A DNA stretch of 15,825 bases. It comes from a virus (lineage: Duplodnaviria > Heunggongvirae > Uroviricota > Caudoviricetes). The notes beneath the pieces are model-generated. The model did no database searches and was not told the origin of the DNA. It saw only the letters and a list, made by a program, of their open reading frames with translations. The position numbers and the translations under genes are program-made. Within the stretch, counting starts at the first letter, position 1. Each line of letters opens with the position of its first letter. Below are positions 2,425 to 14,883 of this stretch, in pieces. The stretch is taken from IMG/VR virus record IMGVR_UViG_2565956713_000002, one strand, 5' to 3'.

Positions 2425-3108
2425 ATGAAAAATATTAATGCCCTTAACGGGCAGGGATTCGCTCACCCTGTTGCCAGTAAAAGCGATATTAGCGTGCAGC
2501 TTAAACAGCTTCCTGCCGTCGAATTTCACGGGCAACGCGTGGTGACGTTCGCAATGATTGATACCGCGCACCAGCGACCTAAAGACACGGCTAAAAAGAC
2601 TTTTCAGCGTAATCGCACTCGCTTCATTGATGGTGAGGACTTTTTTATTGTCGGCGCGTCAGAGGTCGAATGGGGAGGGGCTGGATATTTAGACAGGGGC
2701 ATTAAACGCCCTGGCAAAAAAATGAACAGTCCGATACGTGGCCGCGTAACACTGATTACGGAATCAGGCTATCTGCTGCTGACCAAACCGTTTAACGATG
2801 ATTTGGCCTGGCAGGTACAGCGCCAGCTCGTGAAAACTTATTTCCGTTGCCCGGAGTTTGTCACTTTCCATCATGTGGATCTGCCGTCGCTCGAAGAACT
2901 GATCGCCATGCCGGTTACTGATGCGCAAAACGCCGTGACTCGTGCGGACAAGCATTCTAAGCAGTTTCATGGCTCACAGGGCAGTAATGGAATGAATCTC
3001 CGCAAGAAGGAACTCAAAGTTCTGCGTCCGGCGGTACGGCTGGTAGATGCGATGGGGCAGATTGATTTCGATAAATATGAGTGGGAGGCGGCACATGATC
3101 GCGCATAA
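2425..3108 (+). CDS. ORF6N/KilA-N-like domain phage regulatory protein
   Basis: N-terminal segment VEFHGQRVVTFAMIDTAHQRPKDTAKKTFQRNRTRFIDGEDFFIV resembles the ORF6N DNA-binding domain consensus. C-terminal half unrecognised. Confidence 0.5.
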   Translation: MKNINALNGQGFAHPVASKSDISVQLKQLPAVEFHGQRVVTFAMIDTAHQRPKDTAKKTFQRNRTRFIDGEDFFIVGASEVEWGGAGYLDRGIKRPGKKMNSPIRGRVTLITESGYLLLTKPFNDDLAWQVQRQLVKTYFRCPEFVTFHHVDLPSLEELIAMPVTDAQNAVTRADKHSKQFHGSQGSNGMNLRKKELKVLRPAVRLVDAMGQIDFDKYEWEAAHDRA

Positions 3109-3112
3109 AACA

Positions 3113-3132
3113 AAGGCGACCGGGGGCGGTCG
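3113..3132. terminator. GC-rich hairpin GGCGACCG-GGGG-CGGTCGCC between convergent genes; T-rich tract on the minus-strand side
   Basis: Inverted repeat read directly. On the minus strand it is followed by TTTGTTTTAT, so it could terminate the RHH transcript; it is weak as a + strand terminator. Confidence 0.35.
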
Positions 3133-3225
3133 CCAATGGGAAAACACTAAACATAAGCCCGAACATCATAGTGATTTGCTGGCTGGTGGGCAATGTGATC
3201 AGTGTGCTGGCTTGCTGGTGGGCTA

Positions 3226-3417
3226 TCAACCTTTTGGTTCTATACCGCGCCGCTTTAGTTCTGCCCTGGCTAATTCTTTAAACCAGTTACCAAGGGTTAG
3301 ACCGTCAGAAGTTGCCGCCTCATTTACTTGTTGGCGTAGCTCTTTACTGATTCTGATTTGGAAGGTTGGAGACCATCCCTCACCGCGTGGCGATTTATCG
3401 CGCTTTAATGTTGACAT
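3226..3417 (-). CDS. Ribbon-helix-helix (Arc/CopG-like) DNA-binding protein, putative repressor
   Basis: FQIRISKELRQQVNEAATSDGLTLGNWFKELARAELKRRG fits the beta-strand then two helices RHH pattern. Its start codon overlaps the -35 of the divergent promoter. Confidence 0.6.
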   Translation of the reverse strand: MSTLKRDKSPRGEGWSPTFQIRISKELRQQVNEAATSDGLTLGNWFKELARAELKRRGIEPKG

Positions 3418-3458
3418 GTACGTACGTAACTCCTATTATCATTGCTGTTACGTACGTA
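3411..3458 (+). promoter_or_regulatory. Consensus sigma70 promoter TTGACA-17-TATTAT with two identical palindromic operators TACGTACGTA (3419..3428 and 3449..3458)
   Basis: TTGACA at 3411..3416, 17-nt spacer, TATTAT at 3434..3439. Two perfect 10-bp palindromes sit 30 bp centre to centre, one in the spacer and one just downstream of the -10. Confidence 0.6.
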
Positions 3459-3556
3459 CAATATCAGTAGGTACAGTAAAAAGCAAAGCCCCGCAAGTGT
3501 CGTTACCACTCGCAGGGCTTCTAACCACCAACGATAACGAGAGTATCGAGGTAGCT

Positions 3557-3760
3557 ATGTTAAATCATACCACACACCCGCAAGGGCGGGACTCGCACAA
3601 CCTGAATAAATATATCTGGCGTTTTATCGCCCTGAGCACGGCACAACCGCGCGTGATTCACATCGTGGCCACCAGCGAACAGGAAGCACGCCAGCAATCC
3701 CCGGCTGGCTGCGTGATGGTATTCGCCGCCCGTATTCGTCAGGGGGTGTTCCATGCCTGA
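3557..3760 (+). CDS. Icd-like small protein (host cell division inhibitor family of P4-like elements)
   Basis: 67-aa ORF downstream of the operator-controlled promoter. Sequence YIWRFIALSTAQPR...VMVFAARI resembles Icd-like proteins as recalled from memory, not searched. Confidence 0.45.
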   Translation: MLNHTTHPQGRDSHNLNKYIWRFIALSTAQPRVIHIVATSEQEARQQSPAGCVMVFAARIRQGVFHA

Positions 3761-4079: not shown

Positions 4080-4379
4080 ATGAGAACATATTTATCTGGC
4101 TTGACTGCCAGCGGTTATGCACACCCCAAAATTATCCCCGGCGCTATTTATCTGGATAAGAACGGTAACAGAGTAACGGTAAAAGAACTGATGTTTGACC
4201 GTGTTTATTTTATTCGTGATGGCTATTCATTTCATAGTTCGCTGAACGTGGAGATCTTTATTTGCAGATTCCGGCGGGAAATCCCGCTTTCCAGAAATAA
4301 CCATGTGTCATGTATGGATGTTGATAAAAAACTACAGGAACTGAAAAACATGATTGCCGCGTGGAGAGAGCAGAAATGA
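4080..4379 (+). CDS. Hypothetical protein (99 aa)
   Basis: ORF in operon context immediately upstream of the replication gene. No recognisable motif. Confidence 0.5.
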   Translation: MRTYLSGLTASGYAHPKIIPGAIYLDKNGNRVTVKELMFDRVYFIRDGYSFHSSLNVEIFICRFRREIPLSRNNHVSCMDVDKKLQELKNMIAAWREQK

Positions 4380-6499
4380 AAAAAGCGCCAAATTTAAAAC
4401 ACCAGCCGCGTGACAAAATGACGGAAGTCATCATTTTTGCGGGTAGTGATGCGTGGGCACATGCGAAGCAGTGGCAGGAACAGGACGGGCGACTGGCTGG
4501 CGATAACGTGCCTCCTGTGTGGCTTGGTGAGCAGCAGTTATCCGAACTGGATAAGCTGCAAATCGTACCGGACGGACGCTATCGCGTGCGTCTCTATCAG
4601 GCGGGGTTATTGCGTCCGGGGCTTGTTAATACCATCGGGCAGAAACTGGCAGCGGCAGGTGTCAGGGATGCTGATTATTATCCTGAAGGAATGCACAGCC
4701 AGAAACGGGAGAACTGGCGCGAATATCTGGAACGTGAACGGGCAGAGCAGGCGGAAAAGAAAAAGGTAGTTGAACTGCCTGTAAAGAAAAAAGAGCCATG
4801 CTATCAGGATGATGAATTAAAGCCCAGCGTTGAAAGTCGCGTCGATGGTGTTTTCTGGGTAACGCCCAAAGTGGATAAGCAGTCAGGCGAAATTATCCGG
4901 CCTGAGACGTGGTTATGTTCTCCGCTTGAACTACTGGGAACGGGGACGATCGGTAAAGAGCATTACCGCGTGATGCGCTGGAAAAAATTAGCAAACCATG
5001 AAGTCATCACAATGGCGATCCCGTGTGGTGGCATTGGCGACCGTGACGGCTGGCGGTTGCTTAAAGATCACGGGCTGAATGTGACAACAAACGGCAAATA
5101 CAGGGCTATCCTGGCTGACTGGATGCAGTTAAGCGGAAGCCATGAGGAATGGCAGTTAAGCACAACAACGGGCTGGCATTTTGGCGCGTACATCATGCCG
5201 GACGGTTCAATCATTGGTGATTCTGAAAAACCGATCCTGTTTACCGGAAAAAGTGCCGCTGTTAATGGCTATTCGGTTGCGGGTACGGCGGAGGGCTGGC
5301 GCGACAGCGTGGCGCGGCTGGCTGGTGGCAATCCGTCCATGATGCTGGGTGTTGCCACGTCACTGGCAGCACCTTTGATTGGCCTTGTTGGTGCTGACGG
5401 CTTCGGGGTACATCTTTTCGAACAGTCATCAGCAGGGAAAACCACCACGCAGAACATCGCATCAAGTTTATGGGGAGAGCCGGACGCACAACGGCTTACC
5501 TGGTACGGAACGGCGTTAGGTATCGCCAACGAGGCAGAGGCGCACAACGACGGGCTGTTACCCCTGGATGAAATAGGCCAGGCCGGAAACGCGCGGGAGG
5601 TGTCCACGTCAGCCTATACGTTGTTTAACGGCTCCGGGAAATTACAGGGGGCGAAGGACGGCGGCAACCGGGAGATAAAACACTGGCGCACGGTGGCAAT
5701 CAGCACCGGAGAAATGGACGTTGAGACATTCCTCAAAACGGAGGGGATAAAAGTCAAAGCGGGGCAGCTTGTCCGCCTGCTTAACGTTCCGATGGAGAAA
5801 GCCACGCAATTTCACGAATACAGCACCGGAAAGGCGCACGCAGACGCGTTAAAGGATGCCTGGACTGCAAATCACGGGGCGGCGGGTCGTGAGTGGGTTA
5901 AATGGCTGGCAGACCACCAGCAGGAGGCAAAGGACACGGTAAGGGAATGCCGCGAACGGTGGCACAACCTGATACCGGAGAGCTACGGCGAGCAGGTCCA
6001 CCGCGTGGGGGAGCGTTTCGCCATACTGGAGGCCGCACTAGTGCTTTCCGGTCATATTACTGGCTGGGATGTTCAGGCGTGCCGTGATGCCATTCAGCAT
6101 AACTTTAATGCCTGGGTGAAGGAGTTCGGCACGGGTAACAGGGAATTTAAACAGATGGTTGAACAGGCTGAGGCGTTTTTGTCGTCGTTCGGGTTCAGTC
6201 GATACCTTCCTTACCCAAACAGTGATGAGCGTGATTTACCAATTAAAGATCTTGCCGGATACAGAAAGGGGAGTATCAGAAATGAAGATGATGAGTTCCG
6301 CTTTTACACGTTTCCTCATGTGTTTGAGGGTGAGATAGCACAGGGATTTAATCCGTCTCACTTTGCCCGCGCGTTGAGTGCTGCCGGAATGCTGGAAGCG
6401 GGTAACGATCGCCGTTACAAGAAAAAGGCGCTCGGCAAAATTGGGGGGAAGCAGCATGTTTTTTACGTGCTGATGTTCCAGCCTGAAGCAGAAGATTAA
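4376..6499 (+). CDS. Replication initiator, primase/helicase-like protein (TOPRIM-like N-terminus, DUF927-type ATPase with Walker A)
   Basis: Walker A-like SSAGKTT. N-terminal EVIIFAGSDAWAH resembles a TOPRIM start. Size (~707 aa) and position upstream of the iteron origin fit a satellite pri-rep gene. Start chosen at the ATG at 4376, preceded by GAGAGAG; 4361 and 4418 are alternatives. Confidence 0.75.
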   Translation: MKKAPNLKHQPRDKMTEVIIFAGSDAWAHAKQWQEQDGRLAGDNVPPVWLGEQQLSELDKLQIVPDGRYRVRLYQAGLLRPGLVNTIGQKLAAAGVRDADYYPEGMHSQKRENWREYLERERAEQAEKKKVVELPVKKKEPCYQDDELKPSVESRVDGVFWVTPKVDKQSGEIIRPETWLCSPLELLGTGTIGKEHYRVMRWKKLANHEVITMAIPCGGIGDRDGWRLLKDHGLNVTTNGKYRAILADWMQLSGSHEEWQLSTTTGWHFGAYIMPDGSIIGDSEKPILFTGKSAAVNGYSVAGTAEGWRDSVARLAGGNPSMMLGVATSLAAPLIGLVGADGFGVHLFEQSSAGKTTTQNIASSLWGEPDAQRLTWYGTALGIANEAEAHNDGLLPLDEIGQAGNAREVSTSAYTLFNGSGKLQGAKDGGNREIKHWRTVAISTGEMDVETFLKTEGIKVKAGQLVRLLNVPMEKATQFHEYSTGKAHADALKDAWTANHGAAGREWVKWLADHQQEAKDTVRECRERWHNLIPESYGEQVHRVGERFAILEAALVLSGHITGWDVQACRDAIQHNFNAWVKEFGTGNREFKQMVEQAEAFLSSFGFSRYLPYPNSDERDLPIKDLAGYRKGSIRNEDDEFRFYTFPHVFEGEIAQGFNPSHFARALSAAGMLEAGNDRRYKKKALGKIGGKQHVFYVLMFQPEAED

Positions 6500-6522
6500 C
6501 TCCCCTGTGTGAGGTGAAAAGT

Positions 6523-6647
6523 TGCGGGTTATGCGGGTTATCCTGTGTGTAAGTGCATTAACTGTATGAATAAAAAGGAAATCAATAACCCGCACGTAAC
6601 CCGCAAAACGGCAGTTATAACCCGCAAAAGTGCGATTATAACCCGCA
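6523..6647. repeat. Iteron-type replication origin: 2 direct TGCGGGTTA copies, an AT-rich spacer, then 4 inverted TAACCCGCA copies
   Basis: Direct copies at 6523 and 6532; inverted copies at 6586, 6597, 6618 and 6639 (spacings 11, 21, 21 bp). AT-rich 45-bp spacer between the two groups. Lies immediately downstream of the rep gene. Confidence 0.65.
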
Positions 6648-6710
6648 GAATTTCACCGTAAGGGTGTAAACAAGCGTAACTATCAACGTTAAAACCGGAG
6701 AACAGACAGC

Positions 6711-7136
6711 ATGACAGCACAGATAGCTGCTTACGGGCGGTTGGTGGCTGACCCGCAGTTAAAGACCACCAGCAAAGGGACACAAATGGCGATGGCGAGT
6801 ATGGCGATTCCTCTTCCGTGCAGCCAGGCAGATGACGGAACAGCGACGATGTGGTTATCAATTCTGGCGTTTGGCAGACAGGCCGATGCACTGGCAAAAC
6901 ACCACAAAGGCGAGCTGGTGAGCGTGGCGGGTAACATGCAGGTAAGCCAGTGGACAGGCCAGAACGGGGAAACGCGGCAGGGCTGGCAGGTTATCGCAGA
7001 CAGCGTAATCAGTGCGCGAACGGCGCGACCTGGTGGCAAAAAAGGCCAGCAGGGGCAGGCCACTGACGCACTGAACAGGGCAAAACAACAGACAGGCCAG
7101 CACGATGACCCGTACGGGGATGAAATACCGTTTTAG
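6711..7136 (+). CDS. ssb: Single-stranded DNA-binding protein
   Basis: OB-fold-like N-terminal region, Gly/Gln-rich linker and the acidic C-terminal tail DDPYGDEIPF, matching the SSB D-D-D-I-P-F tail. Confidence 0.75.
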   Translation: MTAQIAAYGRLVADPQLKTTSKGTQMAMASMAIPLPCSQADDGTATMWLSILAFGRQADALAKHHKGELVSVAGNMQVSQWTGQNGETRQGWQVIADSVISARTARPGGKKGQQGQATDALNRAKQQTGQHDDPYGDEIPF

Positions 7137-7676: not shown

Positions 7677-8846
7677 ATGAAGAAATTAATCGAACTCCGC
7701 CAGCAAAAAACCGCCCTGAAAAACCAGATGCGATCCCTGCTGGAAAAAGCCGACAGTGAAAACCGCAGTCTGAACGCTGAAGAAGGCAAACAGTTTGATG
7801 AACTGCGTGCAAAAGCTGATGCCCTCGACACAGAAATTTCCCGCCTCGAGTCTGTGGCTGATGAAGAACGCAGCAAGCCAGGAACGGGCATCCAGAAATT
7901 ATCATCTGATGAATTGCGTAACTACATCGTAACCGGAGATGTGCGATCACTGTCCACCAGCACTGACAGCGGCAGGGATGGCGGATATACCGTAATTCCT
8001 GAGCTCGATCGCGAAGTCATGCGCCAGCTACAGGATGACAGTGTTATGCGCGTGATCGCGACCGTGAAGACCGCAAAATCAAATGAGTTTCAGAAACTGG
8101 TTTCCACTGGCGGCGCAACTGTAGGACGAGGCACAGAAGGCAGCGCACGCAGTGAAACCAACACACCGAAAATTGAACGCGTAACCATCAAGCTGAATCC
8201 GATCTACGCCTACCCTAAAACCACGCAGGAAATCCTTGATTTTTCAGAGGTGGATATTCTGGGTTGGTTATCCTCCGAAATTGCCGACACGTTCGCCAGC
8301 ACCGAAGAGGATGATTTTGTTAATGGCGACGGTAACGGCAAGCCGAAAGGCTTCATGGCTTACACCCGTGCGGCGACCAGTGACAAAACCCGCGCTTTTG
8401 GCACCATTGAAAAAATGGTAGCGGCAAGTGGAACCGCCATTACAGCGGACGAACTGATCGACATTCTCTACAAGCTGAAAGCGAAATACCGCAAAAATGC
8501 CGTCTGGGTGATGAACTCGGGCACGGCAGGGGCACTACAGAAGCTGAAAAATGAGAACGGCGATTATATCTGGCGCGACAGCCTTAAAGAAGGTGCGCCG
8601 GATATGTTGCTTGGTCGTCCTGTTTACTGCCTGGAGTCCATGCCGGACATCGGCGCAGGAAAAGCACCGCTAGCGGTTGGCGATTTCAGTCGTGGTTATT
8701 TCATCGTTGATCATGTAACAGGGATTCGCACCCGACCGGACAACATTACTGAACCCGGATTCTACAAGGTCCACACGGATAAATATCTGGGCGGTGGTGT
8801 GGTGGATTCAAACGCCATCAAAATTCTGGAAATGAAAGCTGGCTAG
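7677..8846 (+). CDS. Major capsid protein, HK97 family, with N-terminal delta (scaffolding) domain
   Basis: Coiled-coil-like N-terminus (LIELRQQKTALKNQMRSLLEKADSENRSLNAEEGKQFDELRAKADALDTEISRLE) followed by an HK97-fold-like body; context with protease and portal. Confidence 0.85.
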   Translation: MKKLIELRQQKTALKNQMRSLLEKADSENRSLNAEEGKQFDELRAKADALDTEISRLESVADEERSKPGTGIQKLSSDELRNYIVTGDVRSLSTSTDSGRDGGYTVIPELDREVMRQLQDDSVMRVIATVKTAKSNEFQKLVSTGGATVGRGTEGSARSETNTPKIERVTIKLNPIYAYPKTTQEILDFSEVDILGWLSSEIADTFASTEEDDFVNGDGNGKPKGFMAYTRAATSDKTRAFGTIEKMVAASGTAITADELIDILYKLKAKYRKNAVWVMNSGTAGALQKLKNENGDYIWRDSLKEGAPDMLLGRPVYCLESMPDIGAGKAPLAVGDFSRGYFIVDHVTGIRTRPDNITEPGFYKVHTDKYLGGGVVDSNAIKILEMKAG

Positions 8847-8856
8847 TCATGAGTAA

Positions 8857-8881
8857 GGAGGAGGCTGCGGCCTCCTTTTTC
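8857..8881 (+). terminator. Hairpin plus T5 run after the capsid gene (AGGAGGC-TGCG-GCCTCCT-TTTTT), likely a partial terminator
   Basis: 7-bp stem with tetraloop and five T residues, located between the capsid and protease genes. Confidence 0.45.
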
Positions 8882-8900
8882 AGCTTTATGGAGTACACCG

Positions 8901-9461
8901 ATGAAAAACACCGATTTTGAAATCCGCACATCTGAACTGACCGCCAGCAATAAAAAGCTGGTGGGGTATGCCGTTCGCTGGAACAGCCTTTCAGAAATTA
9001 TCTGGGACGAATTCCGCGAACAGTTCACGCCGGGGGCTTTTGCTGACTATCTGGCGACGGGTAATGATGTGCGCTGCCTGTATGAGCATGACTATACCCA
9101 ACTGCTGGGGCGCACCAAATCCGGCACTCTGGTACTGACTGAGGATAACACCGGGTTACGTTTTGAACTGACACCGCCGGATACCCAGCTTGGAAAAGAT
9201 GTGCTTACGCTGGTGGAGCGTGGCGACATTACAGGAATGAGCTTTGGTTTTCGCGCATTATGCGAGGAGTGGAGTATCGCGCAAAAACCGTATTTGCGTA
9301 CCGTAACCGCCGCTGAACTCCGTGAAATCACAATAACGTCGATGCCTGCTTATCCAGAATCTGGCGTGGAGATTGCCCACCGTTCGTTGTTTGCACAGCA
9401 CCCTGAATTATGCCCGACAGGAAATAATCGTCATCGCTGGTCTGAGCTGGCGGGGTTGTGA
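8901..9461 (+). CDS. Prohead maturation protease, HK97 family
   Basis: 186-aa protein with GYAVRWNSLS...FTPGAF...GDITGMSFGF, resembling the HK97 prohead protease family; GGAG RBS upstream. Confidence 0.8.
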   Translation: MKNTDFEIRTSELTASNKKLVGYAVRWNSLSEIIWDEFREQFTPGAFADYLATGNDVRCLYEHDYTQLLGRTKSGTLVLTEDNTGLRFELTPPDTQLGKDVLTLVERGDITGMSFGFRALCEEWSIAQKPYLRTVTAAELREITITSMPAYPESGVEIAHRSLFAQHPELCPTGNNRHRWSELAGL

Positions 9462-9462
9462 T

Positions 9463-10677
9463 ATGTGGTGGCCTTTTAGTCGTAAAAAAAGCGAGCAGCG
9501 TAACCTGTCCATTGATGATTTTCTGGCGCTGTCCGGCGTACCGAATACCGGATCCGGAGAATATGTTTCTGCCGGGACGGCTGAATCATTGCCTGCAGTG
9601 ATGAACGCGGTTTCTGTCATCGCTGAGGCGGTGGCCACGATGCCGTGTTATCTGTATCTGGTACGTAATGACAAGGGCAGGGAGGCGCGGGAATGGCTGG
9701 ACAGTCACCCGGTAGATATTCTGCTGAATGAGCAGCCTAATTCGTGCCAGACACCTTACCAGTTTAAACGCACAATGATGCGTCACTGCCTGCTGAACGG
9801 TAACGCCTATGCGGTTATTGAGTGGGGGCAAGACGGGCAGCCAAAATCACTTCATCCTTATGCGCCGGGGTGTGTTGTACCGGAACGCACAGGCGCACAC
9901 AAATACCGCTATACCATCACCGAACCCTATACAGGAACGGTGCGCACGTATTTACAGGAAGAAGTTCTGCATCTCCGCTATGCCTCGGATGATGGCTTTC
10001 TGGGGCGTTCCCCTGTCACGATTTGCCGTGAGGCGCTTGGGCTTGGCCTTGCTCAACAGCGCCACGGAGCCAGCATTATGAAAGATGGCATGATGGCGGC
10101 AGGGATTATCACGTCAGGCGAATGGCTGGACGGCGTGAAAGGTAAACAGGCATTAGATGCTCTGGAACGCTACAAGGGGGCGAAAAATGCCGGAAAAACG
10201 CCAATCCTTGAAGGGGGCATGGATTACAAGCAACTGGGAATGAGTAACCAGGATGCGGAATGGCTGGCCTCCCGTCGCTTCTCCATTGAAGACATCGCCC
10301 GCATGTTCAACGTATCGCCTATTTTTCTGCAGGAATACAGCAACAGCACCTACAGCAATTTCAGCGAGGCAAGCCGCGCGTTTCTGACCATGACAATGCG
10401 CCCATGGCTGGCGAACTTCGAACAGCAAATCAAGGCCGCTTTGCTGGTGGCTTCTCCCGTACCTGGTACCCGTTATCTGGTTGAGTTTGATTCAGCCGAT
10501 TTATTACGCGCCACACCCACCGAACGTTATGCCACGTATGAGAAAGGGATTAAGAACGGGATCATGAATCCGAACGAAGCCCGTGAGCGTGAGGGTATGC
10601 CGCCGCGTGAAGGTGGTGATGAGTTCAGCCAGGCATGGAAACAGACTGTGGAAATTAAAGGGAGAAAAGATGAGTGA
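9463..10677 (+). CDS. Portal protein, HK97 family
   Basis: FSIEDIARMFNVSPIFLQEYSNSTYSNFSEASRAFLTMTMRPWLANFEQQ matches the conserved portal core. The ATG at 9463 directly abuts the protease stop; the ORF-track start at 9373 was trimmed. Confidence 0.85.
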   Translation: MWWPFSRKKSEQRNLSIDDFLALSGVPNTGSGEYVSAGTAESLPAVMNAVSVIAEAVATMPCYLYLVRNDKGREAREWLDSHPVDILLNEQPNSCQTPYQFKRTMMRHCLLNGNAYAVIEWGQDGQPKSLHPYAPGCVVPERTGAHKYRYTITEPYTGTVRTYLQEEVLHLRYASDDGFLGRSPVTICREALGLGLAQQRHGASIMKDGMMAAGIITSGEWLDGVKGKQALDALERYKGAKNAGKTPILEGGMDYKQLGMSNQDAEWLASRRFSIEDIARMFNVSPIFLQEYSNSTYSNFSEASRAFLTMTMRPWLANFEQQIKAALLVASPVPGTRYLVEFDSADLLRATPTERYATYEKGIKNGIMNPNEAREREGMPPREGGDEFSQAWKQTVEIKGRKDE

Positions 10678-10972
10678 AGCCAGAATTACACCTGATGAAG
10701 TCAGGGCACATCTTCGACTTGATGATGATTTATCCGGTGAAGGCGAACTTCTGAAAATGTATACCGATGCGGCGCTGGAAGCCTGCCAGAAGCATATCGG
10801 GAAACGTTTTGAAGACGGGCTGGAATTTACCCCGGCAATGCGTGTTGGTTGCCTGATGTACATCGCTTTCCTGTACGAGAACCGGGAAGCGGTTTCACCA
10901 GTGGAGCACTCGGAACTGCCTATGGCTATTTCTGCGCTCTGGTCAGTTTATCGTGACGTAGGGGTGTACTGA
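10670..10972 (+). CDS. Head-tail connector protein (gp6-like)
   Basis: ARITPDEVRAHLRLDDDLSGEGELLKMYTDAALEACQKHIGKRF resembles the gp6-like connector family; start overlaps the portal stop. Confidence 0.6.
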   Translation: MSEARITPDEVRAHLRLDDDLSGEGELLKMYTDAALEACQKHIGKRFEDGLEFTPAMRVGCLMYIAFLYENREAVSPVEHSELPMAISALWSVYRDVGVY

Positions 10973-11412
10973 TGCCGTGGCAACCATTAAGGCGATGCAC
11001 TGAGCCTGGCTGTAATAAGCGCGTGAAGTCCGGCAAGTGTGAAGAGCACAGGCGGGCTGCATGGCGTGCAGAGGATGCCAGACGGGGACACCGCCGCGCG
11101 CGCGGGTATTCCCGACAGTGGGACAAATACCGCGCCCTGTACCTGAGCAAAAACCCGTTATGCGTGCGTTGTCTGGCTAAGGGGATTTATACGCCAGCTC
11201 TTGTGGTGGATCACATCATTCCCATCAATGGCGGCGGTGATGTTCTCTTCTGGCCTGAGTGGAATCACCAGGCATTGTGCCAGACGTGCCACAACCGTAA
11301 GACGACACGGGAAGATCCAGCCACGAAAGCAAACCGTAAAGCGGGCATGTATCGCGAGCAGGAAGAACGGGCGGCACACCGTAACGACTGGATGTATGGC
11401 GATGATGACTGA
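10972..11412 (+). CDS. HNH endonuclease (packaging-associated)
   Basis: Cys-rich motifs CTEPGCNKRVKSGKCEEH and VDHIIPINGGGDVLFWPEWNHQALCQTCHNRK (HNH with zinc-binding cysteines); position beside the terminase genes. Confidence 0.8.
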   Translation: MPWQPLRRCTEPGCNKRVKSGKCEEHRRAAWRAEDARRGHRRARGYSRQWDKYRALYLSKNPLCVRCLAKGIYTPALVVDHIIPINGGGDVLFWPEWNHQALCQTCHNRKTTREDPATKANRKAGMYREQEERAAHRNDWMYGDDD

Positions 11413-11581
11413 ACAGGAGCAAACCAGGCTGATACGTGGACTGATAAGGCAGCGTGACACATGGAAGACACAGGAGACAGAGCACAAAGCCAACAGGACA
11501 GGGCGCACAAAACGCACCACAGCGAAGCGATTAACCGACCGTGACCGCGAGGTCATGGAATGTTTTCGCAATCGCTGGTGA

Positions 11582-11700
11582 GGCCGTCAGAGGGGGTGGG
11601 GGTGGTTTTCAGGACGAAACCGTCCCTGCCGGACACCGACCGCCCCCTCAAATTTTTGTGCACGGTAATTTTTTTGAAAATAATTGGGCGAAAAAAGAAC
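11582..11700. other. Candidate cos/packaging-site region: G-run inverted repeat (GAGGGGGTGG ... CCGCCCCCTC) and an internal hairpin, between HNH and terS
   Basis: Inverted G/C-rich arms read directly, with an internal AGGACG-AAAC-CGTCC hairpin. In HK97-like cos phages that pair an HNH gene with terminase, cos lies just upstream of terS. Confidence 0.3.
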
Positions 11701-12057
11701 ATGGCAAGACCACCAAAAGCCCCCGCTTACCTGGATGAAATCGCGGTCAGGCAGTGGAAGGAAAAATCGCGCCAGCTTTCCGGGCGGGAAGACCTTACCC
11801 CCGCCGACTGGAGCAATCTGGAACTGTATTGTGTTAACTACTCCATATACCGCAAAGCCGTCGAAGACCTTGCGACGCGCGGGTTCAGCATTGTTAACAG
11901 TCAGGGTAGCGAGAGCAGAAACCCCGCACTGAGCGCAAAGGCTGACGCAGAAAGAATAATGATCAAAATGGCTTCTTTGCTGGGTTTTGACCCGGTAAGC
12001 CGTCGCAGAAATCCACCGGAAACAGAGGAAGAGGACGAACTTGACCGCCTGGCATGA
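11701..12057 (+). CDS. Terminase small subunit (P27-like family)
   Basis: 118-aa protein MARPPKAPAYLDEIAVRQWKE...DLTPADWSNLELYCVNYSIYRKAVEDL; position immediately upstream of terL. The ORF-track start at 11560 was trimmed to the internal ATG. Confidence 0.7.
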   Translation: MARPPKAPAYLDEIAVRQWKEKSRQLSGREDLTPADWSNLELYCVNYSIYRKAVEDLATRGFSIVNSQGSESRNPALSAKADAERIMIKMASLLGFDPVSRRRNPPETEEEDELDRLA

Positions 12058-13702
12058 GTACGCAGAAGGCGTAAAAAACGGCAAAATTACGGCCTGTAAA
12101 CGACTGAAACAGGCCGTTAAACGGTATTTTTCTGACCTTGAAAACTCCCTTTACACGTTCGATCCGGAGGTCGTGGAGCGGTTTATTGCCTTTTCCCGGG
12201 TGTGTCCGCACGTAAAAGGCGCAATGCGCGGTAGTCCCATTGAACTGGAGCCGTGGCAGCAGTTCGCCTTTGCCTGCATCCTGGGCTTTAAGGTTAAGGC
12301 CACCGGACGGCGCAAATACACCAGCGCATTCATTGAAGTACCGCGAAAAAATGCCAAATCCACGGTCGCCGCTATCCTGGCTAACTGGTTTCTGGTTATG
12401 GAAAACGGGCAGCAGGATATTTACACCGCCGCCGTGAGTCGTGATCAGGCGCGGATCGTGTTTGATGATGCGCGTCAGATGTGCCTTTTATCCCGACCGT
12501 TACGAAAGCGGGTAAATATTCAGGCACACAAGGTGATACACCCGAAAACCAACAGCCTGTTAAAGCCACTGGCAGCAAAAGCGGCAACCATTGAAGGTAC
12601 AAATCCGAGTCTTGCCATTGTGGATGAATATCACCTGCACCCTGACAACGGGGTTTATTCCGCACTTGAGCTGGGGATGGGGGCGCGTCCGGAGGGGCTG
12701 TTATTTGCCATCACCACATCGGGGAGCAACGTTGTTTCAGCCTGTAAACAACACTATGACTATTGCTGTCAGATACTGGATGGTGAAGAGGTGAACGAAT
12801 CCATGTTCGTTCTGATTTATGAGCTGGATGATGAAAGCGAGGTTGACGATCCGGCGATGTGGATAAAGGCGAATCCCAATATCGATGTTTCCGTAGATCG
12901 TGAAAAACTGGCCTCAACCATCCAGAAAGCGCGGGGTATTCCGTCGCAGTGGGTGGAAATGCTCACCAAGCGATTCAATATCTGGTGTCAGGGGGCTACG
13001 CCGTGGATGGGTAACGGTGCATGGGCTGAGTGCGCCGGAACGTTCACGGAGGAAGATTTACACGGTCAGGAGTGTTACGCGGGGCTTGATTTATCATCCA
13101 CAAGCGACATCTCCAGCGTGTGCTATGCCTTTCCGGTTGGTAAAACCATTATGCTGGTTTCTCGTCACTATCTGCCGGAATTTCAGCTACAGAACCCCGC
13201 CAATAAAAACCGCGCCATCTATCGCCAGTGGGCAAAGGCGGGCTGGATACGCACAACACCGGGTGACTGCATTGATTATGACCGTATCCGTGATGACATC
13301 ATGGCGGATGCAGAGAATTTCAATATCAGGCTGGTGGGCTTTGATACGTGGAACGCCACGCACCTGAGAACGCAGTTACAGGGGGCAGGCTTTGAGGTGG
13401 AGCCGTTCCCGCAAACCTACCTTCGTTTCAGTCCGGCGGCGAAATCGTTCGAGGTTTTTGTTAACCGGAAGGTGATTGTGCATCGTGGTGATCCGGTGCT
13501 GGCCTGGTCAATGAGTAATGTTGTGATGCAGAGTGACGCGAACGCCAATATCAAGCCGAACAAGAAAAAATCATCCAACAAGATAGACCCGAGCGTTGCG
13601 GCGCTGATGGCGTTTGGCACATTCCAGGCTGAGCATGAGGAATTTGCATTTGATATGAGCGACAGCCAGAAAGAGCGACTAGCGGCATTTGATGGGGTAT
13701 GA
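12041..13702 (+). CDS. Terminase large subunit (ATPase plus nuclease)
   Basis: 553-codon ORF with Walker A-like VPRKNAKST, Walker B-like LAIVDEYHL and C-terminal nuclease-like acidic motifs (GLDLSSTSD, VGFDTWN). The ORF begins with TTG at 12041, overlapping terS by 17 nt; the start is uncertain. Confidence 0.85.
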   Translation: MTAWHEYAEGVKNGKITACKRLKQAVKRYFSDLENSLYTFDPEVVERFIAFSRVCPHVKGAMRGSPIELEPWQQFAFACILGFKVKATGRRKYTSAFIEVPRKNAKSTVAAILANWFLVMENGQQDIYTAAVSRDQARIVFDDARQMCLLSRPLRKRVNIQAHKVIHPKTNSLLKPLAAKAATIEGTNPSLAIVDEYHLHPDNGVYSALELGMGARPEGLLFAITTSGSNVVSACKQHYDYCCQILDGEEVNESMFVLIYELDDESEVDDPAMWIKANPNIDVSVDREKLASTIQKARGIPSQWVEMLTKRFNIWCQGATPWMGNGAWAECAGTFTEEDLHGQECYAGLDLSSTSDISSVCYAFPVGKTIMLVSRHYLPEFQLQNPANKNRAIYRQWAKAGWIRTTPGDCIDYDRIRDDIMADAENFNIRLVGFDTWNATHLRTQLQGAGFEVEPFPQTYLRFSPAAKSFEVFVNRKVIVHRGDPVLAWSMSNVVMQSDANANIKPNKKKSSNKIDPSVAALMAFGTFQAEHEEFAFDMSDSQKERLAAFDGV

Positions 13703-13992
13703 CGAGAATGACTGAAACCGATCTACTAAAAATAATTCGCTGCGTTACCGGAGTCTGCCAGGCAACAGGCAAACCGGAGGCCAAGCAGCCGGATACCGTC
13801 ACCGCTGAAAATTACGCGCGTGTGGTGGCTAAGGTGATGCGCCGTGACGGTATTGAGCTTAACGGCGTGGATATGCGCAACATACGAACCAGAGTCCTTG
13901 AGTTGCTGGCATACCGTCGCCGTTCTCAACAACGGAGGGAGAGCGCGAAAAATACTTACCAGTGGAAGAAGCCGGAACGGTTGCGGCGGTAG
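13699..13992 (+). CDS. Hypothetical protein (97 aa), last gene of the element
   Basis: ORF whose start overlaps the terL stop (ATGA). Basic C-terminus; no recognisable motif. Confidence 0.45.
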   Translation: MTRMTETDLLKIIRCVTGVCQATGKPEAKQPDTVTAENYARVVAKVMRRDGIELNGVDMRNIRTRVLELLAYRRRSQQRRESAKNTYQWKKPERLRR

Positions 13993-14331
13993 ATTCCTGA
14001 TATTCAGGAAAACCACGAATCTGTGGGTTTTACTGGCGCGGTTACGGCGGTGACACGCACCGAGGCAGAACAATTACCGTAGGTTAAAGCGACAGTATTC
14101 ACACCAAAGGCAGAAATTAGCGGTTAACGTAACTGACTGATATTTTCAGGAACAGCCAACGGCTGAGGCCGGAGCTATAAGAATAGCTTTGGGTACAGTC
14201 CTCAGTTTTGAGGGATGTTAACCAACTGAATAATAAGCAAACCTCAAAATTGAGTTTTGTATCTGCCTGAGTTATTTCTGTGCTAACTTGTTGATATTCC
14301 CGACGGCCCAAAAATGGGTTGGCTGGTTGGT

Positions 14332-14449
14332 GAGTTGCAGATTTGCAACTCGACCATGAAACTACGGAAACTACCCGTAGTTTGGGTAGTAAGAGCAACA
14401 CCCAGATTTTGGGGCTTACTCGCGATCCCCAAATAAAGGGGATCGGTGG
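14332..14449. repeat. 118-bp direct repeat, copy 1 (starts with near-palindrome GAGTTGCAGATTTGCAACTC)
   Basis: Direct comparison with 14766..14883 shows 6 mismatches in 118 bp. Contains AAACTAC x2 followed by GTAGTTT and GGTAGT, and a GATCCCC-AAATAAA-GGGGATC hairpin. Confidence 0.85.
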
Positions 14450-14478
14450 CATCACTGGCCCCACTTTCCTGATGTGTT

Positions 14479-14632
14479 TGCGGGTTATTTGGGAGAGGTT
14501 GCGGGTTATTTTGAATGACTTGCGGGTTACGATTTGGCTAACATTTGAACATGTCATTTTTCAACGCATTGATATTAAATAATAAAAAATACTTAGCACG
14601 CGAAGATAACCCGCTAACCCGCATAACCCGCA
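14479..14632. repeat. Second iteron cluster: 3 direct TGCGGGTTA copies at exact 21-bp spacing, a ~75-bp AT-rich spacer, then 3 inverted TAACCCGC copies
   Basis: Direct copies at 14479, 14500 and 14521; inverted copies at 14607, 14615 and 14624. Same 9-mer as the origin at 6523..6647. Confidence 0.65.
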
Positions 14633-14765
14633 CTGTTTTGTATATATATACGAAAAATTGCATTCAGGAGGGGTAGCAAAATCCCTACCGTCTCTTATCT
14701 CTTGGAGTGCCCGCCTCTTCGAATTTTAACCCCCGTGAAATTACAAAATTTCCCTGACTGATGGC

Positions 14766-14883
14766 GAGTTGCAGATCTGCAACTCGACTATGAAACTACG
14801 GAAACTACCCGTAGTTTGGGTAGTAAGAGTAACACCCAGATTTTGGGGCTTACTTGCGATACCCAAATACAGGGGATCGGTGG
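14766..14883. repeat. 118-bp direct repeat, copy 2 (starts with perfect 20-bp palindrome GAGTTGCAGATCTGCAACTC)
   Basis: About 95% identical to copy 1, 434 bp downstream. The 20-mer at 14766..14785 is its own reverse complement. Confidence 0.85.

What the first reader, a model, noticed from the sequence alone, without database searches (positions are those of the whole stretch)
11396..11700. Unusually long HNH-terS spacer with a G-run inverted repeat (putative cos) and a possible small basic ORF
Genes in the head module otherwise overlap or abut, but here there is a 288-nt gap. It contains GAGGGGGTGG ... CCGCCCCCTC inverted arms enclosing an AGGACG-AAAC-CGTCC hairpin, followed by a T-run, which is a reasonable cos/terminase recognition candidate. 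An ORF in another frame (ATG at 11396 or 11402, ending 11581) would encode a ~60-aa Arg/Lys/Thr-rich peptide (MTEQEQTRLIRGLIRQRDTWK...); its status is uncertain. The P2/P4 cos sequence was not seen, consistent with the element using its own HK97-type terminase.
Basis: partly seen in the sequence, partly recalled or inferred. Interest (0 to 1): 0.45.

Follow-up and report, generated by a model that had tools for sequence, protein, structure and literature searches.

The report
Satellite cos site plus small gene
The gap between the HNH and small-terminase genes of this E. coli capsid-forming phage satellite holds a real, conserved 58-residue basic protein gene followed by a 94-bp HK97-type DNA-packaging (cos) site, which is what one expects there, though the site has not been mapped in papers I could find.

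Summary
The sequence features are real. The 288-nt HNH-terS interval is 11413-11700, the 9/10 G-run/C-run inverted repeat is 11590-11599 / 11640-11649, and the inner hairpin, the T-runs and the ORF 11396-11581 are all present.

The window is a capsid-forming PICI (cf-PICI), a relative of EcCIEDL933 and KpCIDSM30104.

The small ORF is a genuine gene. It is intact in 132 of 143 unique relatives, has dN/dS of about 0.3, belongs to phrog_3173 and occurs across Enterobacterales. Its conserved start is ATG 11405, which overlaps the HNH stop. The true non-coding gap is therefore 119 nt.

That gap holds two near-invariant blocks at a fixed 53-nt spacing: GGGGTGGGGGnnGTTTTCAGGAC and CCTCAAATTTTTnnGCACGGnnATTTTTTTGAAAATAA. 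They flank a variable spacer.

The inner hairpin is not conserved and no stem shows covariation. An inverted repeat of this quality arises by chance in 15% of shuffles.

The region aligns with the HK97 cos junction. The C-rich arm matches the HK97 cohesive end.

Particle-derived DNA of KpCIDSM30104 (GenBank vB_KppS-Ant) assembles as a linear molecule that lacks exactly the 69 nt corresponding to window 11616-11684. This places the termini there.

Verdict: the cos reading is supported. It is an ordinary, expected element of a known family. The exact nick positions and the small protein's function remain unknown.

The parts
10972..11412 (+). HNH endonuclease gene, the packaging nuclease cofactor
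   Evidence: It matches Pfam PF01844 at E 8.8e-10 and phrog_144 at E 3.6e-45. It is 36% identical to HK97 gp74 (E 6e-17).
11405..11581 (+). Small basic protein gene, 58 aa from the conserved ATG at 11405. PGAP annotates the start at 11396 (61 aa). The start overlaps the HNH stop (ATGACTGA).
   Evidence: - PGAP annotates it as a hypothetical protein in every row listed of the 491 matching E. coli genomes.
- The ORF is intact (at least 50 aa) in 132 of 143 unique relatives.
- Variation is concentrated at codon position 3. Mean entropy by codon position is 0.59 / 0.53 / 0.87, and the median dN/dS is 0.30 over 871 pairs.
- It matches phrog_3173 at E 5e-27.
- Homologues occur across Enterobacterales.
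- The AlphaFold2 model has helices at residues 3-36 and 45-55, with mean pLDDT 78.
11590..11618 (.). Left conserved cos block: GA-GGGGTGGGGG-nn-GTTTTCAGGAC-nAA. It is a candidate cosQ-like or nuclease-positioning element.
   Evidence: It stays near-invariant when loci are selected only on the right block. It lies at a fixed 53-nt offset from the right block in 89 of 90 loci. It occurs only once in the window. A G-run in the same relative position is present at the HK97, AbIPP1, Pmp8 and Proteus sites.
11619..11634 (.). Spacer of variable sequence but fixed length.
   Evidence: Per-column conservation is low, yet spacing is constant. The inner hairpin is paired in only 48% of cells and broken in the O157, Klebsiella and most other relatives.
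11635..11652 (.). This is the predicted cosN, the zone of the staggered nicks and the cohesive end.
   Evidence: - It is near-invariant.
- It aligns with the HK97 right cohesive end ...TGACCGCCGCCAAA| and with AbIPP1 ATGACCGCCCCCTAAA.
- It lies at the midpoint of the 69 nt missing from the particle-derived KpCIDSM30104 assembly.
- The exact nick positions are inferred, not shown. The two alignment registers place the top-strand nick at 11646/47 or at 11652/53.
11653..11683 (.). A/T-tract block TTTTT-nn-GCACGG-nn-ATTTTTTT-GAAAATAA. This is the predicted TerS recognition site (cosB-like).
   Evidence: It stays near-invariant when loci are selected only on the left block. It is conserved in the Pasteurella Pmp8 island (TerS 61% identical) and the Proteus island. 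In HK97, TerS binds positions +15 to +29 downstream of the nick, and that site includes an essential T/A-tract (PMC11331095). Here the T-tract lies 17-24 or 23-30 nt downstream of the two candidate nick positions.
11701..12057 (+). Small terminase gene (terS), P27 family
   Evidence: It matches Pfam PF05119 at E 1.6e-23 and phrog_83. It is not detectably related to HK97 gp1 (E 4).
12041..13702 (+). Large terminase gene (terL), HK97 type
   Evidence: It matches Pfam PF03354 and PF20441. It is 28% identical to HK97 gp2 over about 500 aa (E 1e-48).

Best explanation
The window is a capsid-forming PICI (cf-PICI). The HNH-terS interval contains two things.

(a) A real gene for a 58-aa, strongly basic, two-helix protein (11405-11581). 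It is translationally coupled to HNH.

(b) The island's own HK97-type cohesive-end site, about 11590-11683.

Proposed mechanism. Every step below is inferred by homology unless marked otherwise.
1. The island's P27-family TerS binds the A/T-tract block (11653-11683) just upstream of its own gene.
2. TerS positions the HK97-type TerL, which works with the HNH protein.
3. TerL and HNH introduce staggered nicks in or next to the C-box (11635-11652). This probably leaves a 3' overhang of about 10 nt.
4. The upstream G-run block (11590-11618) lies at a fixed distance and acts as a second recognition or termination element (cosQ-like).
5. It is not a selected hairpin.

The small protein is most likely an accessory of this packaging module. 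It could be a DNA-binding helper at cos or a partner of HNH or TerS. This part is a guess, with confidence of about 0.3.

Shown here: conservation, fixed spacing, homology to HK97 cos, protein-level selection on the ORF, and a particle-derived assembly of a relative that ends on both sides of this segment.
For: Element identity:
- The window carries int, a DUF927 primase, SSB, capsid, protease, portal, connector, HNH, terS and terL. No tail or lysis genes were found.
- The probed 401-nt stretch (11350-11750) is 100% identical to an island between gcd and hpt in E. coli KSC9, and about 85% identical to the O157:H7 island next to phoQ.

cis element:
- The two blocks are 53 nt apart in 89 of 90 loci.
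- Each block remains near-invariant when loci are selected only on the other block. The 16-nt spacer and the 17 nt before terS vary freely.
- The same architecture appears in Klebsiella, Erwinia, Proteus and Pasteurella islands and in Acinetobacter phage AbIPP1.

HK97 link:
- TerL and HNH are homologous to the HK97 proteins.
- The HK97 cos junction aligns with the gap at a score of 59, against 32 +/- 6 for shuffles; 1 of 1000 shuffles reaches it.
- The HK97 cohesive end CGCCGCCAAA falls on the C-box.
- The terS ATG is 49-55 nt from the predicted nick, against 49 nt in HK97.
- HK97 TerS binds a T-tract site 15-29 bp downstream of the nick (PMC11331095).

Physical evidence from a relative:
- GenBank LR881103 (vB_KppS-Ant) is particle DNA from K. 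pneumoniae DSM 30104, prepared with Nextera XT (PMC8006926).
- Its TerS is 85% identical to the window's.
- The record is 100.000% identical to the ATCC 13883 chromosome over 3755 + 4176 nt. It lacks exactly 69 nt between its two ends, and these correspond to window 11616-11684.
- Packaged KpCIDSM30104 DNA is reported to have cohesive cos ends (bioRxiv 10.1101/2025.02.11.637232).

Small gene.
Against: - No ends were mapped in this island. The physical evidence is indirect and comes from a relative.
- The missing 69 nt could in principle be a coverage drop-out at a G/C-run and T-run rather than molecule ends.
- Two alignment registers place the HK97 nick 6 nt apart (11646/47 or 11652/53). The Ant record's right end coincides with the centre of the inverted repeat (11615), so a central cut is not excluded.
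- TerS is not related to HK97 gp1, so the TerS-site analogy is architectural only.
- No pile-up of contig ends was found in IMG/VR or JGI metagenome contigs.
- The small protein has no detectable homologue of known function. It is absent from the Pasteurella island, AbIPP1 and HK97, which have the same cos architecture. It therefore cannot be a core requirement of this type of cos.
Confidence: 0.75

Rival explanations
1. The site is cos, but the staggered nicks lie at the centre of the inverted repeat (about 11615-11625) rather than in the C-box. The G-run and C-run arms would then be symmetric recognition sites for the nuclease.
For: The arms are symmetric about 11619/20. The particle-derived vB_KppS-Ant record ends exactly at ...TTTTCAGGAC, which equals window 11615. 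G-run/C-box pairing potential recurs in 6 of 8 homologous sites.
Against: - The centre lies in the variable spacer, and cohesive-end sequences are normally conserved.
- This model needs zero loss at one end and about 60 nt loss at the other end of a Nextera library.
- The HK97 cohesive end aligns with the C-box, not the centre.
- Arm pair 3 is broken in 38 of 48 relatives, and the O157 island has lost most of the symmetry.
Confidence: 0.12
2. The structure is an intrinsic terminator or attenuator RNA (a GC-rich stem followed by a U-run). It would end, or tune, transcription between the head/HNH genes and terS-terL.
For: The predicted RNA fold is -45 kcal/mol with a 10-bp GC stem, and UUUUU follows 3 nt after the stem. 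The z-score is -3.4 for the 75-nt core.
Against: - There is no compensatory change in any stem. The inner hairpin is paired in 48% of cells and the third outer pair is broken in 38 of 48 sequences.
- The O157 homologue does not fold this way (z -0.5).
- AAA separates the stem from the U-run, and the loop is 40 nt.
- The terminator scan did not call this structure.
- Conservation extends 35 nt beyond the stem into the A/T block.
- terS and terL, which are needed for packaging, lie downstream with no promoter-like site on the + strand.
- There is no Rfam match.
- The homologous HK97 sequence is the physical genome end.
Confidence: 0.08
3. The conserved blocks are a promoter or operator for terS-terL, bound by a regulator (possibly the small basic protein), rather than a packaging site.
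For: The blocks are conserved, AT-rich sequence directly upstream of terS. A basic, possibly DNA-binding small protein is encoded next to them.
Against: - No sigma-70-like site is found on the + strand.
- The same blocks occur in Pasteurella and Acinetobacter elements that lack the small protein.
- Homology to the HK97 cos junction and the break in the particle-derived assembly are not explained.
Confidence: 0.05

Closest known systems
Bacteriophage HK97 cos site, with its gp1 TerS / gp2 TerL / gp74 HNH packaging system
   Same: - The site lies between the HNH gene and terS.
- TerL (28% identity, E 1e-48) and HNH (36% identity, E 6e-17) are homologous.
- The order of DNA elements is the same: G-run, about 40 nt, C-rich box GACCGCC(G/C)CC..AAA, T-tract, then the terS ATG about 50 nt from the nick.
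- The DNA alignment is significant against shuffles.
   Different: - TerS belongs to a different family (P27/PF05119, against HK97 gp1; E 4).
- The spacing from the C-box to the T-tract differs by 4-7 nt.
- The ends of this island have not been mapped.
- The host element is a 15-kb satellite without tail genes, not a 40-kb phage.
cf-PICIs EcCIEDL933 and KpCIDSM30104 (Alqurainy et al., bioRxiv 2022.09.08.507074; He et al., bioRxiv 2025.02.11.637232)
   Same: - Gene order is the same: int, regulators, primase, capsid-protease-portal-connector, then hnh-terS-terL.
- DNA identity in this region to the O157:H7 island is about 85%.
- TerS is 85% identical to the KpCIDSM30104 / vB_KppS-Ant TerS.
- The cos blocks and the small ORF are shared.
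   Different: - The integration site differs (between gcd and hpt in the identical KSC9 copy).
- This island has one connector gene fewer than the O157 island.
- In the texts I could search, these papers mention cohesive ends but do not map the cos site or describe the small gene.
Phage lambda cos (cosQ-cosN-cosB)
   Same: The logic is tripartite: an upstream element, a nicking site, and a downstream TerS-binding region next to the terS gene.
   Different: There is no sequence relationship. Lambda leaves 12-nt 5' overhangs and needs no HNH protein. Its cosB has repeated R sites and an IHF site, which were not seen here. This comparison rests on textbook knowledge and was not tested here.
phrog_3173 (PHROGs family of unknown function)
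   Same: The small protein matches over its full length at E 5e-27.
   Different: The family has no assigned function and no Pfam model. Only 26 clusters at 50% identity were found among 1.8 billion proteins, and every member whose source names an organism is from Enterobacterales.

Membership tests
Capsid-forming PICI (cf-PICI) | Integrase at one end plus a regulation/replication module (primase/rep) | tested here: met
   The integrase is at 1-1224 (PF00589 and PF13356). The DUF927 primase-type protein is at 4361-6499 and SSB at 6711-7136.
Capsid-forming PICI (cf-PICI) | Own capsid module (major capsid, protease, portal, connector) followed by hnh-terS-terL | tested here: met
   PF05065, PF04586, PF04860, PF05135, PF01844, PF05119 and PF03354/PF20441 occur in that order across 7677-13702.
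Capsid-forming PICI (cf-PICI) | Size of about 10-18 kb and absence of tail and lysis genes | tested here: met
   The island occupies about 15 kb, from int to just before hpt. No ORF scanned matched a tail or lysis family. Several small ORFs remain unassigned.
Capsid-forming PICI (cf-PICI) | Induction by a helper phage and transfer in its own small capsids fitted with helper tails | not testable with these tools
   This requires experiments. It has been shown for relatives only (papers read).
HK97-type (HNH-dependent, 3'-overhang) cos site | Located between the HNH gene and terS, with HK97-type TerL and HNH proteins | tested here: met
   TerL homology is E 1e-48 and HNH homology is E 6e-17.
HK97-type (HNH-dependent, 3'-overhang) cos site | DNA similarity to the defined HK97 cos junction | tested here: met
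   The global alignment scores 59 against 32 +/- 6 for shuffles, and 1 of 1000 shuffles reaches it. The six-way alignment is A5.
HK97-type (HNH-dependent, 3'-overhang) cos site | TerS homologous to HK97 gp1 | tested here: not met
   BLASTP gives E = 4. The TerS here is P27 family. I therefore call the site HK97-type by architecture and by its TerL/HNH proteins, not an HK97 cos orthologue in every component.
HK97-type (HNH-dependent, 3'-overhang) cos site | Physical genome termini map to the site, with a 10-nt 3' overhang | tested here: inconclusive
   Only indirect evidence from a relative is available. The particle-derived vB_KppS-Ant assembly lacks the 69 nt that equal window 11616-11684. 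Overhang length and polarity cannot be tested here.
Rho-independent terminator | A GC-rich stem directly followed by a U-run, with the stem maintained in relatives | tested here: not met
   AAA intervenes between stem and U-run, and the loop is 40 nt. The scan did not call it. There is no covariation and the inner helix is 48% paired.
phrog_3173 small protein family | Full-length match to the family profile | tested here: met
   The match is E 5.3e-27 over residues 1-57 of a 57-position profile.

The most novel reading that the evidence does not exclude
The 50-61-aa basic protein (phrog_3173) encoded between HNH and cos would be a satellite-specific packaging factor. For example, it might bind the left cos block or the HNH/TerS complex so that the island's terminase acts only on island DNA. 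Alternatively, it might interfere with the helper's packaging. Either role would contribute to the mutually exclusive packaging reported for cf-PICIs. Every copy whose gene neighbourhood I inspected lies in a cf-PICI-like island of Enterobacterales. It is absent from Pasteurella, Acinetobacter and HK97 elements that share the cos architecture. An unrelated small ORF sits in the same slot in HK97 and AbIPP1.
Probability: 0.15. Interest if true: 0.55.

Novelty: new member of a known kind. Interest (0 to 1): 0.3.

Why it matters
cf-PICIs are a recently described and widespread class of phage satellites. They build their own capsids and package only their own DNA.

Knowing where their cos site is, and which blocks are conserved, gives a concrete 94-bp target. 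That target can be used for cos-plasmid packaging assays, for engineering cf-PICI-based DNA delivery vehicles, and for recognising these islands in genomes.

The analysis also shows that a GenBank 'phage' described as filamentous (vB_KppS-Ant) is packaged KpCIDSM30104 DNA, with its termini in this segment.

Finally, it identifies a conserved, unstudied small protein as part of the packaging module.

None of this overturns expectations. A cos site between hnh and terS is the textbook position for HK97-like systems.

Tried and rejected
- **Contig ends as a proxy for termini.** I made three IMG/VR pattern scans and one JGI metagenome scan and looked for contigs that end inside the gap.
  - A few do. 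L089, a 15.5-kb metagenome contig, ends at window-equivalent 11636, and L066 ends at 11637.
  - There is no pile-up of ends. Many IMG/VR ends are prophage-prediction boundaries, so I do not rely on them.
  - I could not retrieve the other end of the L089 contig.
- **Logan contigs.** Contigs of about 16 kb that carry the small gene end near int/att, not at cos, so they are uninformative.
- **Hairpin or RNA-element reading.** It was tested by covariation, by folding homologues and by Rfam. None supports it.
- **Function of the small protein.** I searched Pfam, PHROGs, a profile search of 1.8 billion representatives, and AlphaFold2 followed by Foldseek against PDB and BFVD. No informative match was found. 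A helix-linker-helix of 58 aa is too simple for fold matching.
- **A cis element inside the 3' half of the ORF.** I considered this because that half is almost identical between the window and the O157 island. Across the wider family the variation there follows codon position 3, so coding constraint explains it.
- **P2/P4 cos.** It is absent with up to 3 mismatches. The query sequence was recalled from memory.
- **MF417951.** This record is the closest relative of vB_KppS-Ant according to PMC8006926. It is not in the local phage collection.
Full report
**What is in the sequence**

- The HNH gene (10972-11412; PF01844) ends with TGA at 11410-11412. The terS gene (PF05119, P27 family) starts at ATG 11701.
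- The arms GAGGGGGTGG (11590-11599) and CCGCCCCCTC (11640-11649) are 9/10 complementary.
- They enclose GGACG-AAAC-CGTCC (11612-11625). AAATTTTTG and ATTTTTTTG follow.
- The ORF 11396-11581 is present, with in-frame ATGs at 11396, 11402 and 11405.

**Is the repeat more than chance?**

- Not by itself. Inverted repeats with 10-nt arms, at most one mismatch and a loop of at most 60 nt occur at about 30 places in the 15.8-kb window. They also occur in 148 of 1000 shuffles of the 288-nt interval.
- The predicted fold is moderately better than shuffles. The z-score is -2.05 for the 119-nt RNA, -2.97 for the 71-nt DNA and -3.4 for the 75-nt core.

**What the element is**

- The window carries, in order: a tyrosine integrase, DUF6387, an ORF6N protein, DUF4222, a DUF927 primase-type protein, SSB, an HK97-fold major capsid protein, an S78 prohead protease, portal, a gp6-like connector, HNH, TerS and TerL.
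- No tail or lysis genes were found.
- The probed 401-nt stretch around the gap (11350-11750) is 100% identical to an island between gcd and hpt in E. coli KSC9. It is about 85% identical to the O157:H7 island next to phoQ, which is the location and organisation described for EcCIEDL933.
- This is a capsid-forming PICI (cf-PICI), a known family. The region is present in 491 of 5426 complete E. coli genomes.

**The small ORF is a gene**

- PGAP annotates it as a hypothetical protein in every row listed.
- I extracted the region from about 165 IMG/VR loci found by two DNA-pattern scans, which gave 143 unique sequences. Of these, 132 have an intact ORF of at least 50 aa in this position. About five close relatives carry truncations.
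- Several protein subtypes share 40-60% identity and the pattern M(T/N)E..(5)L..(G/S)L..R(D/E).(W/F) ... (K/R)R..(3)R(D/E)RE..EC(F/M)RNR.
- The conserved start is the ATG at 11405. It overlaps the HNH stop (ATGACTGA), which suggests translational coupling. In the Klebsiella subtype a GAGG lies 8 nt upstream of the equivalent ATG.
- DNA variation is concentrated at codon position 3. Mean column entropy by position is 0.59 / 0.53 / 0.87. The Nei-Gojobori dN/dS has a median of 0.30 over 871 pairs, and 99.9% of pairs are below 1.
- The protein matches phrog_3173, a family of unknown function, at E 5e-27.
- A profile search finds 136 clusters at 90% identity in Escherichia, Klebsiella, Enterobacter, Citrobacter, Salmonella, Hafnia, Pectobacterium, Serratia, Erwinia, Pantoea, Xenorhabdus and Proteus. 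Only 26 clusters at 50% identity turn up among 1.8 billion representatives, with no link to a larger family.
- AlphaFold2 predicts a long helix (residues 3-36), a basic linker and a short helix (45-55), with mean pLDDT 78. Foldseek finds nothing significant.
- In a Proteus mirabilis island the gene sits in the same HNH-x-terS slot.
- The gene is absent from the Pasteurella Pmp8 island, where HNH is followed directly by the gap.
- Acinetobacter phage AbIPP1 and HK97 each have an unrelated ORF in this slot (the HK97 ORF is unannotated and I did not verify it).
- The real non-coding gap is therefore 11582-11700, 119 nt.

**Anatomy of the gap**

- Two blocks stand out: m1, GGGGTGGGGGnnGTTTTCAGGAC (11593-11615), and m2, CCTCAAATTTTTnnGCACGG (11646-11665).
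- Their start-to-start distance is 53 nt in 89 of 90 loci that carry both.
- To avoid circularity, I measured conservation of each block only in loci selected on the other block.
  - Selected on m1, positions 11635-11637, 11642-11657, 11660-11665 and 11668-11683 are 90-100% conserved.
  - Selected on m2, positions 11593-11618 are 91-100% conserved, apart from the two free positions (11603-04) and 11610, 11612 and 11616 at about 75%.
  - By contrast, 11619-11634 and 11684-11700 vary freely.
- The non-coding core (11590-11683) is thus more conserved than the wobble positions of the flanking genes. It has a variable spacer of constant length. This is the signature of a protein-recognised DNA site with fixed geometry.

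**Structure test**

- I used 48 distinct sequences and the minimum-free-energy structure of the window.
- The outer helix has no pair with changes on both sides. Its third pair is broken in 38 of 48 sequences.
- The inner hairpin is paired in only 48% of cells.
- The covariation score equals the shuffle mean.
- The O157 homologue does not adopt the fold (z -0.5). Most others keep G-run/C-box pairing potential but have unrelated interiors.
- The complementarity therefore follows from two conserved G-rich and C-rich blocks. Nothing indicates selection for base pairing.
- There is no Rfam match. The terminator scan does not call this structure, and there is no promoter-like site on the + strand.

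**Comparison with HK97**

- TerL is 28% identical to HK97 gp2 (E 1e-48). HNH is 36% identical to gp74 (E 6e-17). TerS is unrelated to gp1.
- The HK97 record ends ...GGGCAGGGGGGGGGATCAAATCTTCAAAACCTTTGCCCCAAATGACCGCCGCCAAA. It starts GTTTGAATTTAACGCTAACCCGATTTTTTTAG..., with the terS ATG at +50.
- Chechik et al. (PMC11331095) place the cleavage between -1 and +1. They place the TerS site at +15 to +29, including an essential T/A-tract, and report a 10-nt 3' overhang.
- The window has the same order of elements: G-run, about 45 nt, GACCGCCCCCTCAAA, T-tracts, then terS.
- A global alignment scores 59 against 32 +/- 6 for shuffles, and 1 of 1000 shuffles reaches it.
- In a six-way alignment with the O157, Klebsiella and Pasteurella islands, AbIPP1 and HK97, the core aligns almost without gaps. 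AbIPP1 has ...AATGACCGCCCCCTAAAG..., which is strikingly like HK97 ...AATGACCGCCGCCAAAG.
- The HK97 nick maps to window 11652/53 in the pairwise alignment and to 11646/47 in the multiple alignment. I therefore give a zone (11637-11653) rather than a position.

**Physical evidence from a relative**

- A blastn search of the phage collection hit LR881103, 'Escherichia phage vB_KppS-Ant'. This is a 16,548-bp linear record. It ends at ...GGGGTGGGGGAGGTTTTCAGGAC and starts 22 nt before terS.
- Townsend et al. (PMC8006926) obtained it from a lysate on K. pneumoniae DSM 30104 and sequenced it with Nextera XT. They noted >99% identity to the host chromosome.
- It is therefore packaged KpCIDSM30104, the cf-PICI studied by He et al. 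They report that its packaged DNA forms concatemers through cohesive cos ends.
- The chromosome of ATCC 13883 (= DSM 30104) is 100.000% identical to the record on both sides (3755 and 4176 nt). Between the two record ends it carries 69 nt: GAACACGAGGGCGCCAGGCACCACCCGCCCCCTCAAATTTTTTCGCACGGTGATTTTTTTGAAAATAAA. These are homologous to window 11616-11684.
- Tagmentation libraries lose the tips of linear molecules. A single-contig assembly that is missing a short segment exactly here is what a cos site in that segment would produce.
- The midpoint of the missing segment falls on ...CCCTCA|AATT, inside the C-box.
- Caveat: a composition-dependent coverage drop-out at the G/C and T runs could mimic this pattern.

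**Most likely mechanism**

Every step here is inferred.
- The island's TerS binds the block 11653-11683.
- TerL and HNH nick in or beside the C-box, leaving a short 3' overhang.
- The G-run block at a fixed distance upstream serves as a second recognition or termination element.
- The small basic protein, co-translated with HNH, probably assists this machinery. Because related cos sites work without it, it would be an accessory or specificity factor at most.

**Rivals**

- The nicks could lie at the centre of the inverted repeat. This is kept open by the Ant right end at 11615, but the variable sequence there and the HK97 alignment argue against it.
- An intrinsic terminator or attenuator was tested and is unsupported.
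- A promoter or operator explains neither the HK97 homology nor the assembly break.

**Novelty**

- The family and the position of cos are as expected for HK97-like, HNH-dependent packaging.
- In the papers available to me, the cf-PICI cos site is mentioned but not mapped, and the small gene is not discussed.
- The finding is therefore a new, reasonably well-delimited member of a known kind, plus one uncharacterised small protein family.

Noticed in passing
window 6513-6657: An iteron cluster lies just after the DUF927 primase stop and before ssb. TAACCCGCAAAA occurs three times at 21-nt spacing, and inverted copies (TTGCGGGTTAT) lie at 6521-6541. This is a candidate replication origin of the island.
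   Followed up: partly
window 14328-14883: A second cluster of the same iteron lies near the right end of the island: TTGCGGGTTAT twice at 21-nt spacing at 14478-14519, with inverted copies at 14603-14632. It is bracketed by a 122-nt direct repeat (14328-14449 and 14762-14883, 94% identical), and each repeat copy carries the hairpin AAACTACGG-n7-CCGTAGTTT. The meaning is unknown. It could be a second origin, a duplicated att-proximal region or a partition-like site.
   Followed up: partly
window 3416-3461: A long alternating palindrome, TGTACGTACGTAAC...GTTACGTACGTACA, lies inside ORF 3047-3760.
   Followed up: no
window 13792-13920: ATACCGTCAC / GTGACGGTAT is repeated three times, in inverted orientation, inside the conserved ORF after terL (13699-13992; phrog_1561, unknown function).
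   Followed up: no
L003 (GenBank LR881103.1, vB_KppS-Ant): This record is described in its source paper as a filamentous ssDNA prophage. It encodes an HK97-fold capsid, portal, HNH and terminase and is 100% identical to the K. pneumoniae ATCC 13883 chromosome. It is packaged DNA of the cf-PICI KpCIDSM30104. It also carries a 768-aa gene annotated as tape measure protein downstream of terL.
   Followed up: partly
L174 595-798 (HK97) and L202 442-660 (Acinetobacter phage AbIPP1): Both phages have a small ORF (67 and 72 aa) between the HNH gene and cos. The two are unrelated to each other and to phrog_3173. The HK97 ORF is unannotated in NC_002167. The last slot before cos seems to be a recurrent home for small genes.
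   Followed up: no
L274 5648-6187 (Proteus mirabilis island): One Proteus cf-PICI copy has an extra HNH_3 (PF13392) gene inserted between the capsid and protease genes. It is absent from the otherwise collinear copy L273, so it is probably a homing-endonuclease insertion.
   Followed up: no
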